This document shows, piece by piece, positions 1,618 to 5,400 of a stretch of DNA of 64,000 nt; the stretch's first letter is position 1; each line of letters opens with the position of its first letter. A program made the position numbers and the translations under genes. The notes under the pieces were generated by a model. That model was not told where the DNA came from. It ran no database searches and was given only the letters and a program-made list of their open reading frames with translations. This DNA comes from an uncultured Planctomycetaceae bacterium (GTDB taxonomy: Bacteria > Planctomycetota > Planctomycetia > Planctomycetales > Planctomycetaceae): assembly GCA_963813715.1 (NCBI GenBank), contig CAWFAK010000005.1, forward strand, positions 640,001 through 704,000, read 5' to 3'.

Positions 1618-2969
1618 TGTTGAGACCGGACACATGGGTGACAAGTGTTCGGACACATGGGTAACAGGTTTGGCGGGGAAGGCAAAGGCTGCGTGAGCGT
1701 AGCGAATGCAGCCTTTGCCTTCCTCGCGTCGGAAAATCACGTCCCCTCCGCGTTCCGGTCTCGCAGATCAATGCGGGCAATCTTCTGCGAGCAATAAAAC
1801 ACCTGCCAGACTCCCTCGGTCGTCGTCGGCCGAAGAGCGACGGCTTCGCCCGAGAACGCCTCGCTGATCTTGATCACTTGTCCTCGAAAACTCAGTTGCC
1901 CCACGGGATTCACCTTGCGGACTTCGTCTCCCTCGTCGTATTCGATCGGCGGAAGATGCTCCGGAAACTCACGTCGGCTGACCACGTAACGACTACCAGG
2001 CACTCTCAGCCCCAAGGCCTCGTGAGGACGCTCGTGGTTATACGTCTGACGCCAACGATCGAACTCCCGCTGCACCTCCCCAGAGTTCGCGAAGGCCCGG
2101 CCGCGCAACACTTCCGCCTGCAGCGTGCGGTGAAATCGCTCTTCCTTCCCTTGCGTCTCGGGGTGGTAAGGGCGGCCATGGATCACGCGAATGTTGTGTC
2201 GCAACAACCAGACCGACAGCTTCGTGTAACCTCCGCGACGGTGGGTGACCGCCCAGGGCGTCCCGTTGTCCATCAACATCGACCAGGGAAGGCCGTAACG
2301 TCGAAAGACGCCCTGCAGACTCTCCCGAACGGTCTCGGATCGCTGGTTCAAACAGGCCCGCAGCCCCAAGGAGTAGCGAGAGTGATCGTCTGTGATCGTC
2401 AACGGGTGGCAGCGACGACCGTCGACCATGCGGAAATCGCCCTTGAAATCCATCTGCCACAACTCGTTGGGCGCCTCCCGCTCAAACCGCTGCACGGGGG
2501 CACGCCGGAGTGACTCCTCCTGCTCGATGCGGCCATGACGACGCAAAATCGCCGTGATCGTGCTGGCGGCCGGGACCGCTTGACGCCCCAGGGCCAACAG
2601 ACGGGCCCGCAGCTTGCGACCTCCCCAGACCGGGTGCCGATCCCGCAGCTCCAGCACCTCCGCTTCAATGGCCGCGCTCGTCGGCTCGCGAAAATGCCGA
2701 GGACGACGCGAACGATCCACGCACGGTTCGCCCAATCGAACCCGGCCTAACCACTTGTAGCCGGTCTTCCGCGAAATCCCAAACCGCCTGCACAGCACAG
2801 CGACCTTCGAATTTGGCGACGACGCCAAACGGCAAAACTCTTCCCGCATCGACACAACGTCACACTCCTGCCACGGCATCCGTCTCCCTCCTGGAAAGGA
2901 AGACCTCAGCCTACAAAAAGTGTTACCTATGTGTCCGAACGACTGTTACCTATGTGTCCGGTCTATACA
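1618..2969 (-). mobile_element. Complete IS481-family insertion sequence, 1352 bp
   Basis: TGT...ACA termini. Inverted repeats TGTTGAGACCGGACACATGGGTGACA and TGTATAGACCGGACACATAGGTAACA, each with an internal second copy. 5-bp target duplication CTCTG at 1613-1617 and 2970-2974. Confidence 0.95.
1737..2879 (-). CDS. IS481-family transposase (HTH + rve integrase core)
   Basis: MPW start, FGISRKTGYKW HTH, WQMDFKG, DDHSRY, MDNG, QGKEERFHRT, YNHERPHEAL. Confidence 0.95.
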   Translation of the reverse strand: MPWQECDVVSMREEFCRLASSPNSKVAVLCRRFGISRKTGYKWLGRVRLGEPCVDRSRRPRHFREPTSAAIEAEVLELRDRHPVWGGRKLRARLLALGRQAVPAASTITAILRRHGRIEQEESLRRAPVQRFEREAPNELWQMDFKGDFRMVDGRRCHPLTITDDHSRYSLGLRACLNQRSETVRESLQGVFRRYGLPWSMLMDNGTPWAVTHRRGGYTKLSVWLLRHNIRVIHGRPYHPETQGKEERFHRTLQAEVLRGRAFANSGEVQREFDRWRQTYNHERPHEALGLRVPGSRYVVSRREFPEHLPPIEYDEGDEVRKVNPVGQLSFRGQVIKISEAFSGEAVALRPTTTEGVWQVFYCSQKIARIDLRDRNAEGT

Positions 2970-3680: not shown

Positions 3681-3743
3681 GCCGCGATTGTACCGGCAGC
3701 GAGTCACCGGAGTGACCAGATTCTGCACAGCACCGACTCGGAC

Positions 3744-3851
3744 GGGTGGCGGGGGCGCTCCGCTTCGCGGAAGCCCCTGTCTTGTCGTGATCCTTGCCCG
3801 CTGAGGTAGGCCGATGTTCCGGGGCTTCCGCTCCGCGGAGCGCCCCGGCCA
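3744..3851. repeat. REPIN (inverted pair of GGGTGG-headed REP hairpins), right arm interrupted by IS110
   Basis: GGGTGGCGGGGGCGCTCCGCTTCGCGGAAGCCCC ... GGGGCTTCCGCTCCGCGGAGCGCCCCGGCCA|CCC. Near-identical arms at 58792-58959. Confidence 0.85.
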
Positions 3852-3879
3852 TCTATGAGAAGGGTAGCGTCAAGGGTTG

Positions 3880-4120
3880 GTTTTTGCGTTTGAAGTGGTG
3901 ATCTGGGCGATGCGGTACGCTCAACCATCTATTCGGGATCACCAACGGTCTGGAACAGGTCCGTCGATGTCGCCAGGAAGCCGACTTTCGAGAGACGCCC
4001 CATTCACCCTTCGAAGGTCGCTCTTTTGAGGGAACGCCTTCATGGCCGGGGGCGGGGTCGTCTGTGGGTCGTCGCAGCGCTTTCGATCGATGTTTTGTTT
4101 TGTGCTCTCCTGCCAAGGTC
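3880..4120 (-). ncRNA. Predicted bridge/seek RNA of the IS1111-type element (boundaries approximate)
   Basis: Segments match target-left+core (4043-4051), core+target-right (4005-4009), donor-left (3977-3981) and core+donor-right (3926-3932). Confidence 0.7.
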
Positions 4121-4126
4121 AGGGAT

Positions 4127-5146
4127 TTAAGTCGGTTGCTGGCTGAGCGAGTAGGGTTGGCCCGTCTTCAAGATCGCTGTCATCAGGCACAACAACCGGC
4201 GGGCCACGGCGACGATCGCCTTCTTGGCACGCACGCGCAACTTCAATCGTTCATAAATCCGACGCCAACGTAACGAGTGCTGAACCAGCCGCCAGGCGGC
4301 TTCGACCAGCGTCGAGCGCAGCAGCGTCGAACCGTTCTTCTCCAGGTGCAGCTCCCGACTCTTGCCCGCACTCTCGCGTTGACCCGGTGAGAGCCCTGCG
4401 TAAGCGACGACCCGCTTTTGCGAACCGAAGCGATCAATGTCTGCCAACTCGGCCAGCACAACTTCGGTGGTCACGAAGCCCACTCCGGGGATCGTCCGCA
4501 ACAGCGTCCGCGCTTCCTGCTCGCAAAGCGGCGCCGCCTCGGCGAACTCCTTCAGCCGGGCGTTGACGGCCAGCAGCTGACGCCTCCCGAAGTGCAACTC
4601 TTCGACCATTTGATCCACGGCGAACCGATCCGCTCCCAAGAGAGGCACTTGGGCGAGATACGCCAACCCGTCCACGGTGAACAGACTGGGACGATCCGCG
4701 TTGTAGTCGCAGAGAATGCGGCGCAGACGGTTCTTGACGGAGGTCAATCGCCGTTGAACGCCGCCCCGCTGACGCACCAGTCGTCGATGCTCATGCTGCC
4801 GCGGAGTCGCCCGGTAAGACGTCGGAATCATGTCCAAGGCCAGGAACTCCGCGAGGATTTGCGCGTCGAGCCGATCGCTTTTACGCGTGCTCTCGGCAAT
4901 CACACGCAGCTTCTTGGGGTGGGCCAACAACACGCGATGGGCCACGGGCTCGATCAATCGCACGAACCATTCGTAGCTGGCGGTCGCTTCCACGACAGCC
5001 TCGAACTCCCCGAGCCTCTCGAAAAATGCGAGGATGCTCCGCTCTTCGCCACAACGCACGGTCCGACGCTCCAAGACCCGCCGCAATTGGTCGACGACGC
5101 AAATCGTGATAGTCTGCTTGTGTAGGTCGCAGCCGGCAAATTTCAT
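4127..5146 (-). CDS. IS110-family DEDD recombinase/transposase
   Basis: GCDLHK, VEATA and KSDRLDA (DEDD RuvC fold); TIPGVG, YAGLSP..RESAG (catalytic Ser), AIVAVARRL. AAGGA RBS. Confidence 0.95.
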   Translation of the reverse strand: MKFAGCDLHKQTITICVVDQLRRVLERRTVRCGEERSILAFFERLGEFEAVVEATASYEWFVRLIEPVAHRVLLAHPKKLRVIAESTRKSDRLDAQILAEFLALDMIPTSYRATPRQHEHRRLVRQRGGVQRRLTSVKNRLRRILCDYNADRPSLFTVDGLAYLAQVPLLGADRFAVDQMVEELHFGRRQLLAVNARLKEFAEAAPLCEQEARTLLRTIPGVGFVTTEVVLAELADIDRFGSQKRVVAYAGLSPGQRESAGKSRELHLEKNGSTLLRSTLVEAAWRLVQHSLRWRRIYERLKLRVRAKKAIVAVARRLLCLMTAILKTGQPYSLSQQPT

Positions 5147-5400
5147 GGCGGTGTCCTTTTGTGGAAACGGTTTGCAACAAACTCCGTTTACCACGTTCAA
5201 GCACAACCACCAACCGGCTCGGCCTACCTCTTACCGCTCCTCATAGCTTCACCCCTGACGCGCCGCCGGATCCAAAAGCCGCAGCGTGTCAGGGGCATGC
5301 CCCTGGGTTTTGAGGGGTGACGCCGATACACTGCGCGAAGATTGCACGGGTCCTGGGATGATTGGCGCGAACAGCCTTTTTGCCTACGGAGAATGTCGAG

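What the first reader, a model, noticed from the sequence alone, without database searches (positions are those of the whole stretch)
3849..5254. IS1111-type bridge recombinase with a readable guide RNA programmed against a host REP
Seen: the empty target is CCCCGGC-CA-CCC and the circle junction is ATAGCTT-CA-TCTAT. The non-coding region downstream of the recombinase, read on the minus strand, has in order CCCCGGCCA (4051-4043, 9/9 match to target-left+core), GGGUG (4009-4005, complement of core+target-right), GCUUC (3981-3977, partial donor-left) and AUAGAUG (3932-3926, 7/7 complement of core+donor-right). Known: IS110/IS1111 bridge (seek) RNAs carry target and donor guide pairs like this, and IS621 also targets REPs. 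Inference: an intact programmable recombinase with a CA core. A TTGACG -35-like hexamer near the right end would face the circle junction.
Basis: partly seen in the sequence, partly recalled or inferred. Interest (0 to 1): 0.8.

Follow-up and report, generated by a model that had tools for sequence, protein, structure and literature searches.

The report
REP-targeting IS1111-type bridge-RNA insertion sequence
This is an intact copy of a known kind of RNA-guided jumping gene (IS110/IS1111 family), and its guide RNA can be read from the sequence and matches the small host repeat it inserts into; it is a clear example, not a new mechanism.

Summary
Window 3850-5251 is a 1402-bp IS110-family element with an intact 339-aa DEDD transposase on the minus strand. 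It is one of 8 copies in this genome. All 8 sit in CC(C)GGC-CA-CCC-like sites, and 6 of these are at the edge of a REP-like hairpin repeat.

The 275-nt non-coding stretch downstream of the transposase holds a conserved 155-nt RNA block (4064-3910, minus strand). It has four helices supported by compensatory changes across 18 related elements.

The 5' strand of the first loop changes together with the downstream flank. In 11 of 17 relatives it matches its own flank at 8 or more of 9 positions. Only 2 of 198 mismatched pairs reach that score. The donor loop matches the element's own ends, fully on one side and partly on the other.

A soil-metagenome contig carries the empty site of one copy with a single CA. 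The 3' non-coding region, the subterminal inverted repeats, the 339-aa length and the guide order all fit the IS1111 type.

RNA expression, a circular intermediate and reprogramming were not shown. Verdict: supported, a new member of a known kind, modest interest.

The parts
3743..3777 (-). Unoccupied partner REP in inverted orientation. It ends in CCCCCGCCACCCG, one base off the target.
   Evidence: Together with the next REP it forms the long hairpin that produced the spurious miRNA-model hits.
3821..3846 (+). REP-like hairpin (GGGGCTTCCGC-NNNN-GCGGAGCGCCCC) whose 3' edge carries the insertion site.
   Evidence: 34 matches in the genome to a loosened pattern, 6 of them followed directly by the element.
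3843..3849 (+). Target half CCCCGGC. In transposase orientation this is the right target (RT).
   Evidence: 8 of 8 copies have CC(C)GGC, CCCCAGC or CCTCGGC here.
3850..3851 (+). Core dinucleotide CA (TG in transposase orientation), at the junction with the element's right end.
   Evidence: The empty-site contig has a single CA.
3852..3875 (-). Right end of the element in transposase orientation. It holds the subterminal inverted repeat CTCATAG (3859-3853) and the -35-like TTGACG (3873-3868).
   Evidence: TTGAC lies at a fixed distance from the end in 18 of 18 related elements; the -10 across a modelled junction is weak.
3910..4064 (-). Conserved 155-nt bridge/seek RNA block with four helices: P1 4063-4054/4001-3993, P2 4041-4035/4020-4013, P3 3992-3988/3924-3920 and P4 3975-3965/3944-3934.
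   Evidence: 86.8% of cells paired, 18 of 31 pairs with compensatory change, 0 of 500 shuffles as high; the MFE of this RNA alone gives all four helices.
4042..4053 (-). 5' strand of the target-binding loop. CCCCGGCCA (4051-4043) is the reverse complement of core+RT, so it acts as an RTG.
4002..4012 (-). 3' strand of the target-binding loop. GGGUG (4009-4005) is identical to LT+core, so it acts as an LTG.
   Evidence: cognate match of 5 to 7 out of 7 in all 17. L051 and L052 change to GGCCG together with their flank.
3976..3987 (-). 5' strand of the donor-binding loop. GCUUC (3981-3977) is a partial complement of core + left-end tip, so it acts as an RDG.
   Evidence: 5 of 7 here. The triplet next to the core matches 3/3 in 8 of 17 cognate pairs against 4 of 176 non-cognate pairs.
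3925..3933 (-). 3' strand of the donor-binding loop. AUAGAUG (3932-3926) is identical to the right-end tip + core, so it acts as an LDG.
   Evidence: 7 of 7 in 16 of 18. L051 and L052 change to AUAGACG together with their end CATAGACG.
4127..5146 (-). Transposase/recombinase gene, 339 aa, intact in this copy.
   Evidence: D7, E53, D91, D94 and S259 are invariant in 17 homologs.
5147..5249 (-). Short left end (103 nt) with subterminal inverted repeat CTATGAG (5246-5240) after a 3-nt extension AAG.
5250..5254 (+). Second copy of the core CA (5250-5251), then target half CCC (5252-5254). In transposase orientation this is the left target (LT).
   Evidence: CA then CCC in 8 of 8 copies.

Best explanation
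Window 3850-5251 is a complete, probably active IS1111-type member of the IS110 family of RNA-guided insertion sequences.

Its DEDD/serine recombinase is encoded on the minus strand at 5146-4127. The non-coding region downstream encodes a bridge (seek) RNA of about 155 nt with two internal loops.

The first loop reads the target on both strands. [quoted passage not shown] These are written in transposase orientation.

The second loop reads the abutted ends of the element. AUAGAUG corresponds to the right-end tip plus core. GCUUC partly corresponds to the core plus left-end tip.

Recombination at the shared TG/CA dinucleotide would insert the element at the 3' edge of a REP-like hairpin, with no duplication beyond the 2-nt core.

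Shown here: the anatomy, the conserved structure, the guide/flank covariation, target specificity in this genome and three others, and an empty-site allele.

Inferred from the family: transcription together with the transposase gene from a promoter made at the circle junction, RNA processing, binding of the RNA by the recombinase, and the strand-exchange chemistry.
For: **Protein.**
- It matches PF01548 and PF02371.
- It scores 217.8 bits against NF033542, cut-off 140.
- Its C-terminal half aligns with the IS621 and ISCro4 transposases in the PDB (E about 1e-13). S259 sits opposite the serine in the ESGSS stretch of IS621. That this is the catalytic serine is recalled from the literature.
- D7, E53, D91, D94 and S259 are invariant in 17 homologs.

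**Copies and target.**
- There are 8 copies at 97.8-100% identity, all with the same flanks.
- 6 of the 8 lie in a REP family of at least 34 copies.
- One Logan contig of run X9, which is on record as an RNA library, joins both flanks of the C7 copy through a single CA.

**Structure.**
- Of 31 proposed pairs, 86.8% of cells are paired and 18 pairs show changes on both sides. None of 500 shuffles reached any of the measures. Sliding the partners by 1 to 3 columns drops pairing to 33-48%.
- The MFE of the 155-nt RNA alone reproduces the four helices.

**Target guide.**
- Cognate loop against flank scores 8 or more of 9 in 11 of 17 relatives and 7 or more in 13 of 17.
- Non-cognate pairs score 8 or more in 2 of 198 and 7 or more in 5 of 198.
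- Multi-copy relatives each have their own consistent target that fits their own guide: G237 with 4 copies, G197 with 4 and G102 with 3.

**Donor guides.**
- The LDG matches 7 of 7 in 16 of 18. Guide and end change together from TG to CG in L051 and L052.
- The RDG triplet matches 3/3 in 8 of 17 cognate pairs against 4 of 176 non-cognate pairs.

**Guides within this genome.** All guide positions are invariant among the 8 copies. Variation inside the RNA block is confined to the apical loop of P2, at 4024-4030.
Against: - No evidence of the RNA itself. The runs were laid as contigs, and contigs from RNA libraries do not prove transcription.
- No joint of circular type was seen.
- No Rfam family matches.
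- The 281-nt non-coding region folded alone is no more stable than shuffles (z = -0.98).
- In the single-sequence fold, CCCC of guide 1 pairs with GGG(U)G of guide 2. This intraloop pairing is not part of the covariation-supported consensus.
- Helix P3, which closes the donor loop, is weak. One of its 5 pairs shows compensatory change and 83% of cells are paired.
- The RDG match is only 5 of 7 here.
- Four of 17 relatives fit their flank poorly: L040 3/9, L045 5/9 (a truncated copy), L050 5/9 and L051 6/9.
- No sigma-70-like promoter was found in the linear element. The junction -10 is poor, 2 of 6 here.
- 4 of the 8 copies carry an extra base at column 4513 that breaks the frame. This may be assembly error.
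Confidence: 0.9

Rival explanations
1. The guide-like segments are chance matches in a GC-rich non-coding region. The recombinase would then choose its target through protein-DNA contacts with the REP hairpin.
For: The 5-mers GGGUG and GCUUC are not significant on their own. The genome is 63% G+C. The whole non-coding region folded alone is unremarkable.
Against: The 9-mer is unlikely by chance. The loop sequence changes with the flank in relatives that have at least 9 different targets. The loop is held between helices with compensatory changes.
Confidence: 0.02
2. The element family uses the RNA, but this genome's copies are relics that no longer move.
For: 4 of 8 copies have a +1 base at column 4513, and one of them also has an in-frame stop. 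No circular joint was seen.
Against: Four copies, including this one, have full open frames of 339 aa. The copies are 97.8-100% identical. One insertion is polymorphic, with an empty allele in a soil sample. Illumina-based contigs of 4 runs show no indel at 4513 (table 4), so the frameshifts may be assembly errors.
Confidence: 0.1
3. It belongs to the IS110 subgroup proper (like IS621) and not to the IS1111 subgroup.
For: NCBIfam and Pfam do not separate the subgroups. The only solved relatives found are IS621 and ISCro4. The residue after S259 is Ala, not the usual Gly.
Against: - The long non-coding region is downstream: 275 nt against 103 nt upstream.
- The subterminal inverted repeat CTATGAG is 7 bp, 9 of 11 when extended.
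- The protein is 339 aa, inside the 330-350 aa range given for IS1111 transposases.
- The guide order is top-strand complement first.

The last two criteria are taken from PMC11187229 (sections read).
Confidence: 0.07

Closest known systems
ISEc11, ISKpn4, ISPa11 and ISPst6 (IS1111 family) with their seekRNA. Source: Siddiquee et al. 2024, PMC11187229. I read the abstract, sections 6, 9 and 13, and passages.
   Same: - The transposase has the same size (TnpEc11 is 339 aa).
- There are subterminal inverted repeats.
- The non-coding region is downstream.
- The guide complementary to the top strand lies 5' of the bottom-strand guide, and the two overlap at the insertion point.
- The conserved block of 155 nt compares with the 154-nt 'long seekRNA' of ISEc11.
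- A -35 near the right end faces the junction, as in the published P-junc promoters.
   Different: - The host phylum is different (Planctomycetaceae) and so is the target.
- The sequence is unrelated at the RNA level as far as tested. There was no Rfam hit, and I made no direct comparison with those RNAs.
- A second loop that matches the element's ends is clear here. The passages I read describe target matches only.
- Ala, not Gly, follows the conserved Ser.
IS621 bridge RNA. Sources: Durrant et al. 2024, PMC11208160, passages read. Solved structures 8wt6 and others appeared as matches.
   Same: - There are two internal loops, one for the target and one for the donor.
- Each loop reads both strands and overlaps a 2-nt core.
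- The fold is DEDD plus a serine.
- IS621 is also said to insert into REPs, but that statement is recalled and not from a call.
   Different: - The RNA lies 3' of the gene, not 5'.
- The guide order is reversed: RTG-LTG-RDG-LDG instead of LTG-RTG-LDG-RDG.
- The long guide is on the RT side (9-10 nt) and the short one on the LT side (5-7 nt).
- The core is TG, not CT.
- The two stem-loops abut directly, since P1 ends where P3 begins.
- Only the C-terminal half of the protein aligns significantly.
ISPpu9 and ISPpu10 of Pseudomonas putida (PMC12288879, abstract only).
   Same: They are IS110-family elements present in several copies and inserted into REP sequences. They have circular intermediates. 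A hybrid junction promoter is reported for ISPpu10.
   Different: The REP family and host are different. The role of the RNA in ISPpu9 is reported as dispensable. No experiment exists for the present element.

Membership tests
IS110 family (DEDD transposases) | N-terminal DEDD/RuvC-like domain plus C-terminal Transposase_20 domain | tested here: met
   PF01548 (E = 1.8e-14) and PF02371 (E = 5.7e-23), both above cut-off. NF033542 scores 217.8 bits against a cut-off of 140.
IS110 family (DEDD transposases) | Catalytic D-E-D-D and a conserved serine | tested here: met
   D7, E53, D91, D94 and S259 are invariant in 17 homologs. E53, D91/D94 and S259 align with the corresponding residues of IS621. 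Activity was not assayed.
IS110 family (DEDD transposases) | Site-specific insertion with no duplication beyond a short shared core | tested here: met
   All 8 copies have the same flanks, with CA at both ends. The empty allele has one CA.
IS110 family (DEDD transposases) | Circular intermediate with abutted ends | not testable with these tools
   Only contigs could be laid, and no go-back joint was listed.
IS1111 subgroup | Longer non-coding region downstream of the transposase gene | tested here: met
   275 nt downstream (4126-3852) against 103 nt upstream (5249-5147).
IS1111 subgroup | Subterminal inverted repeats of 7-17 bp with short terminal extensions | tested here: met
   CTATGAG starts 1 nt from one end and 3 nt from the other, not counting the core. 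It is 7 bp perfect and 9 of 11 when extended. It is conserved in the relatives.
IS1111 subgroup | Transposase of 330-350 aa with the motif GL-P----S(T)G | tested here: inconclusive
   The protein is 339 aa. The residues are G251, L252, P254 and S259, but residue 260 is Ala and G261 follows. The paper also mentions TA variants.
IS1111 subgroup | Transposase groups with curated IS1111 members in a phylogeny | not tested
   No named IS1111 transposase could be fetched. One search failed, and the plasmid hits are all annotated only as 'IS110 family'.
Bridge / seek RNA | Structured non-coding RNA with internal loops in the long non-coding end | tested here: met
   Four helices, 18 of 31 pairs with compensatory change, and the single-sequence MFE agrees. 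P3 is weak.
Bridge / seek RNA | Loop strands match both strands of the target and covary with it | tested here: met
   Exceptions: L040, L045, L050 and L051.
Bridge / seek RNA | A second loop matches the donor (the element's ends) | tested here: met
   The LDG matches 7/7 in 16 of 18, with a TG-to-CG co-change. The RDG is partial, 5 of 7 here, and shows triplet covariation.
Bridge / seek RNA | RNA is expressed, binds the recombinase and is required, and changing it retargets the element | not testable with these tools
   No raw RNA reads were available, and contigs from RNA libraries cover the whole element. The natural series of different guides is indirect support only.
REP (repetitive extragenic palindrome) | Short imperfect palindrome repeated many times, often in inverted pairs | tested here: met
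   34 matches to the loosened pattern, with a hairpin of about 11 pairs and one bulge. At least 9 are in inverted pairs. Extragenic location was not checked systematically. Y1 transposase genes exist in the genome, but no link was tested.

The most novel reading that the evidence does not exclude
This Planctomycetaceae clade is a natural reprogramming series with rules that differ from IS621.

- A 9-10-nt RT-side guide has been rewritten to at least 9 different host repeats.
- The LT-side guide stays GGGUG in 15 of 18 elements.
- The second core base may not need to be shared between donor and target.

Evidence for the last point comes from two independent insertions, L041 and L042. In both, the left junction keeps TG while the right junction has TA. 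Their RT guide reads TA, and the host's empty repeats carry GGGTA.

If the effective crossover were after the first core base, or if core mismatches were tolerated, this would widen the sites such recombinases can be aimed at.
Probability: 0.2. Interest if true: 0.5.

Novelty: new member of a known kind. Interest (0 to 1): 0.3.

Why it matters
RNA-guided IS110/IS1111 recombinases are being developed as programmable genome-insertion tools. This element adds nothing new in principle.

It does give a fully readable example outside the Proteobacteria, with all four guides, the target repeat, occupied sites and one empty site in hand. It also comes with 17 relatives whose guides have drifted to other host repeats.

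Such a natural series can be used to derive guide-length and core rules for the IS1111 branch, which is less well studied than IS621. For genome annotation, it explains a 1.4-kb repeat and its preference for one REP subtype in a soil planctomycete.

Tried and rejected
- **Rfam.** No real family matched. The weak miRNA-model hits at 3747-3851 only reflect the hairpin made by two inverted REPs.
- **Fold of the whole 281-nt non-coding region.** It was not informative (z = -0.98).
- **The search for related loci with the single protein.** It gave only 7 loci, so the genome search in the family was used instead.
- **Plasmid protein search.** It returned 1165 records, all under 60% identity and all annotated generically, so it could not assign a subgroup.
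- **Known IS1111 member for comparison.** Fetching the ISEc11 record named in PMC11187229 failed. One E. coli plasmid hit carried no annotation for the matched stretch and was not used further.
- **The search of earlier findings.** It was closed.
- **Reads.** The element occurs in soil-metagenome contigs of 16 studies, including 6 RNA libraries. Contig depth cannot show transcription, and no circular joint was listed. I draw no conclusion on expression.
- **Promoter scan of the linear element.** It found no promoter and one terminator-like site inside the gene, fewer than in shuffles.
- **Modelled circle junction.** It gives a good -35 but only 2-3 of 6 in the -10, so the junction promoter remains an inference.
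- **Coding potential of the non-coding region.** The 87-aa ORF at 3853-4116 was rejected as a gene. The homologous regions differ in length by amounts that are not multiples of three.
Full report
**What is there.**
The window holds a 1402-bp element from 3850 to 5251, counting the CA dinucleotide at both ends. A 339-aa open frame on the minus strand (5146-4127) matches Pfam DEDD_Tnp_IS110 and Transposase_20. It scores 217.8 bits against NCBIfam NF033542, 'IS110 family RNA-guided transposase', cut-off 140. Its C-terminal half aligns with the solved IS621 and ISCro4 transposases, and S259 sits opposite the serine of their ESG stretch. D7, E53, D91, D94 and S259 are invariant in an alignment of 17 homologs.

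**Copies and target.**
The own genome (7.49 Mb, 18 contigs, 82.6% complete) has 8 full-length copies at 97.8-100% identity. All 8 are flanked in the same way. The left flank ends in CCCCGGC (4 copies), GCCCGGC (2), CCCCAGC (1) or CCTCGGC (1). It is followed by CA, then the element, then CA and CCC. The only bases shared between the element ends and the site are CA, which fits a 2-nt core.

Six of the 8 left flanks are the 3' arm of a hairpin repeat, GGGGCTTCCGC-N4-GCGGAGCGCCCC. A loosened pattern finds this repeat 34 times in the genome. At least 9 of these are in inverted pairs, and several unoccupied copies end in GGCCACCC. A second subtype ends in CCCCCGCCACCC and is never occupied.

The exact 12-mer CCCCGGCCACCC occurs 4 times in the genome. 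The name REP is therefore fair, although I did not check systematically that all copies are extragenic.

**An empty site.**
The element is present in contigs of soil metagenomes from 16 studies. Laying four of those runs gave one contig in run X9 with two loose ends. These ends are the left and right flanks of the copy at C7:224421-225869, as printed, joined through REP...CCCCGGC-CA-CCCG. This insertion is therefore polymorphic and the empty site has a single CA. No joint of the circular type was listed. Contigs cannot show transcription, and I draw nothing from their depth.

**The RNA.**
Searching 301 genomes of the same family (Planctomycetaceae, by the record titles) found the transposase in 29 at E <= 1e-40. 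I took 17 relatives of 75-47% amino-acid identity, and with the window copy this makes 18 elements. All 18 have the long non-coding region downstream of the gene. All 18 also have TTGAC at a fixed distance before an end of the form CATAGA+core.

A block of about 140-200 nt aligns across all 18. RNAalifold found two stem-loops. A four-helix structure that I wrote from the alignment was then counted on it.
- 86.8% of 547 cells are paired.
- 18 of 31 pairs have changes on both sides.
- None of 500 shuffles reached any measure.
- Sliding the 3' partners by 1 to 3 columns dropped pairing to 33-48%.

P1 has 6 of 9 pairs compensatory and 98.7% of cells paired. P2 has 5 of 7 and P4 has 6 of 10, so these three helices are well supported. 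P3, which closes the second loop, is weak, with 1 of 5 pairs compensatory and 83% of cells paired.

For the window copy the block is 4064-3910 on the minus strand. Its minimum-energy fold on its own reproduces all four helices. In that single-sequence fold the CCCC of the first segment pairs with the GGG(U)G of the second. That pairing is not part of the covariation-supported consensus. The 281-nt region folded whole was uninformative. Rfam has no matching family.

**The four segments.**
- CCCCGGCCA (4051-4043) is on the 5' side of the loop between P1 and P2.
- GGGUG (4009-4005) is on the 3' side of that loop.
- GCUUC (3981-3977) is on the 5' side of the loop between P3 and P4.
- AUAGAUG (3932-3926) is on the 3' side of that loop.

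In transposase orientation the target reads GGG-TG-GCCGGGG. The first guide is therefore complementary to the top strand of core plus right target. The second guide is identical to left target plus core.

**Covariation with the target.**
I compared the 5' loop strand of each element with the reverse complement of core plus 7 nt of downstream flank. For the 17 cognate pairs, the scores out of 9 were as follows (L048 has no flank because the contig ends there).

| Score out of 9 | Number of cognate pairs |
|---|---|
| 9 | 6 |
| 8 | 5 |
| 7 | 2 |
| 6 | 1 |
| 5 | 2 |
| 3 | 1 |

Among 198 non-cognate pairs whose targets are at most 5/9 alike, 2 reach 8 and 5 reach 7. The poor cognate cases are L040 (3), L045 (5, a truncated copy), L050 (5) and L051 (6, which I count by hand as 7 contiguous pairs if one G:U is allowed).

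The relatives have at least 9 different right targets. Three multi-copy relatives each show a consistent target that fits their own guide: 4, 4 and 3 copies in G237, G197 and G102.

The 3' loop strand matches the 5 flank bases plus core at 7/7 in 5 elements, 6/7 in 7 and 5/7 in 5. Most share GGGTG. The informative cases are L051 and L052, where guide and flank are both GGCCG, and L043 (CGUGUG against CGTATG).

**Donor side.**
AUAGAUG equals the last 7 bases of the right end, including the core, in 16 of 18 elements. In L051 and L052, guide and end both read ATAGACG.

The 5' strand of the donor loop is more loosely matched, 5 of 7 in the window copy. The three bases next to the core-adjacent position do follow the left-end tip (GCU/AGC, GUG/CAC, GAG/CUC, GUU/AAC). 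They match 3/3 in 8 of 17 cognate pairs against 4 of 176 non-cognate pairs.

Among the 8 copies in this genome all four guide positions are invariant. Variation inside the RNA block falls only in the apical loop of P2, at 4024-4030.

**Subgroup.**
The features used in the literature for IS1111-type elements are described in PMC11187229 (sections 6 and 9 read) and PMC11208160 (passages). They compare with this element as follows.
- Non-coding region downstream: 275 nt against 103 nt upstream.
- Subterminal inverted repeats: CTATGAG, 7 bp perfect and 9 of 11 when extended, set in by 1 and 3 nt.
- Transposase length: 339 aa, within the 330-350 aa range.
- Guide order: the top-strand-complementary guide lies 5' of the bottom-strand guide.
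- GL-P----S motif: present, but the next residue is Ala and not Gly.

I could not place the protein in a tree with curated IS1111 members. That part of the membership is therefore untested.

**Promoter.**
It is conserved as TTGAC in 18 of 18 elements. In a junction modelled in a script, the best -10 has only 2 of 6 matches here and 2-4 of 6 in the relatives. The linear element has no sigma-70-like promoter. A junction promoter is published for this family (PMC11187229, passages) and is a reasonable inference here, but it is not shown.

**How it most likely works.**
The steps below are inferred by analogy with the published systems. After excision to a circle the ends abut as ...CATAGA-TG-AAGCTATG.... 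Transcription from the junction reads the transposase gene and the downstream RNA. The RNA is bound by the recombinase. One of its loops holds the junction and the other holds a REP edge. Strand exchange at TG then inserts the element.

Shown here are the sequence anatomy, the conserved helices, the covariation of both loops with their DNA partners, the site specificity and one empty allele.

**Comparison and verdict.**
The element is the same kind of thing as ISEc11, ISKpn4 and ISPa11 with their seekRNA. [quoted passage not shown] - The host phylum and the target repeat are different.
- The core is TG.
- The RT-side guide is long and the LT-side guide is short and nearly constant.
- The two stem-loops abut directly.
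- An SAG stretch replaces SG after the conserved serine position.

It is a new member of a known kind.

Noticed in passing
L041 and L042 (relatives in G293 and G251); empty repeats in G251, G293 and G237: In two independent insertions the left junction has core TG but the right junction has TA. Their RT-side guide reads UA. The hosts' empty repeats read GGGT[A/G][A/G]GCCCGAAT: 12, 18 and 30 copies against 0 for the reversed control, and all 12 in G251 are GGGTAAGCCCGAAT. The second core base therefore seems to travel with the right-hand arm.
   Followed up: partly
window column 4513, seen in the copies at C12:9577-10978, C12:90466-91868, C7:435598-436998 and C7:224424-225826: Four of the 8 copies carry one extra base (C or T) at the same column, which breaks the transposase frame. 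Illumina-based contigs of 4 soil runs show no indel there. These may be assembly errors and not real pseudogenes.
   Followed up: partly
window 1737-2879, minus strand: A 380-aa ORF about 1 kb to the left of the element looks, from its translation, like an integrase-type (rve-like) transposase of another insertion sequence. This impression is recalled. It was not searched.
   Followed up: no
window 5252-5320: Directly right of the element lies another palindrome (CCCCTGACGCG...CGCAGCGTGTCAGGGG) between the insertion site and the start of a UMP-kinase-like gene (ORF from 5362). The element therefore sits in a repeat-rich intergenic region about 110 nt upstream of that gene. The gene name is my reading of the translation and was not searched.
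   Followed up: no
G000:C3:75290-75631 and 7 other places: The genome has 8 matches to Pfam Y1_Tnp (PF01797), the family that includes REP-associated tyrosine transposases. No link to the REP family described here was tested.
   Followed up: no
L050 (G252) and L040 (G078): In these two single-copy relatives the downstream flank does not fit their own RT-side guide (5/9 and 3/9), while the upstream flank fits (7/7 and 6/7). They may be off-target insertions or later rearrangements.
   Followed up: no
window 3700-5400 in public runs: Near-identical copies of the element occur in soil and rhizosphere metagenome contigs of 16 studies. Six of these runs are on record as metatranscriptomes. The host lineage or the element is therefore widespread in soils.
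   Followed up: partly
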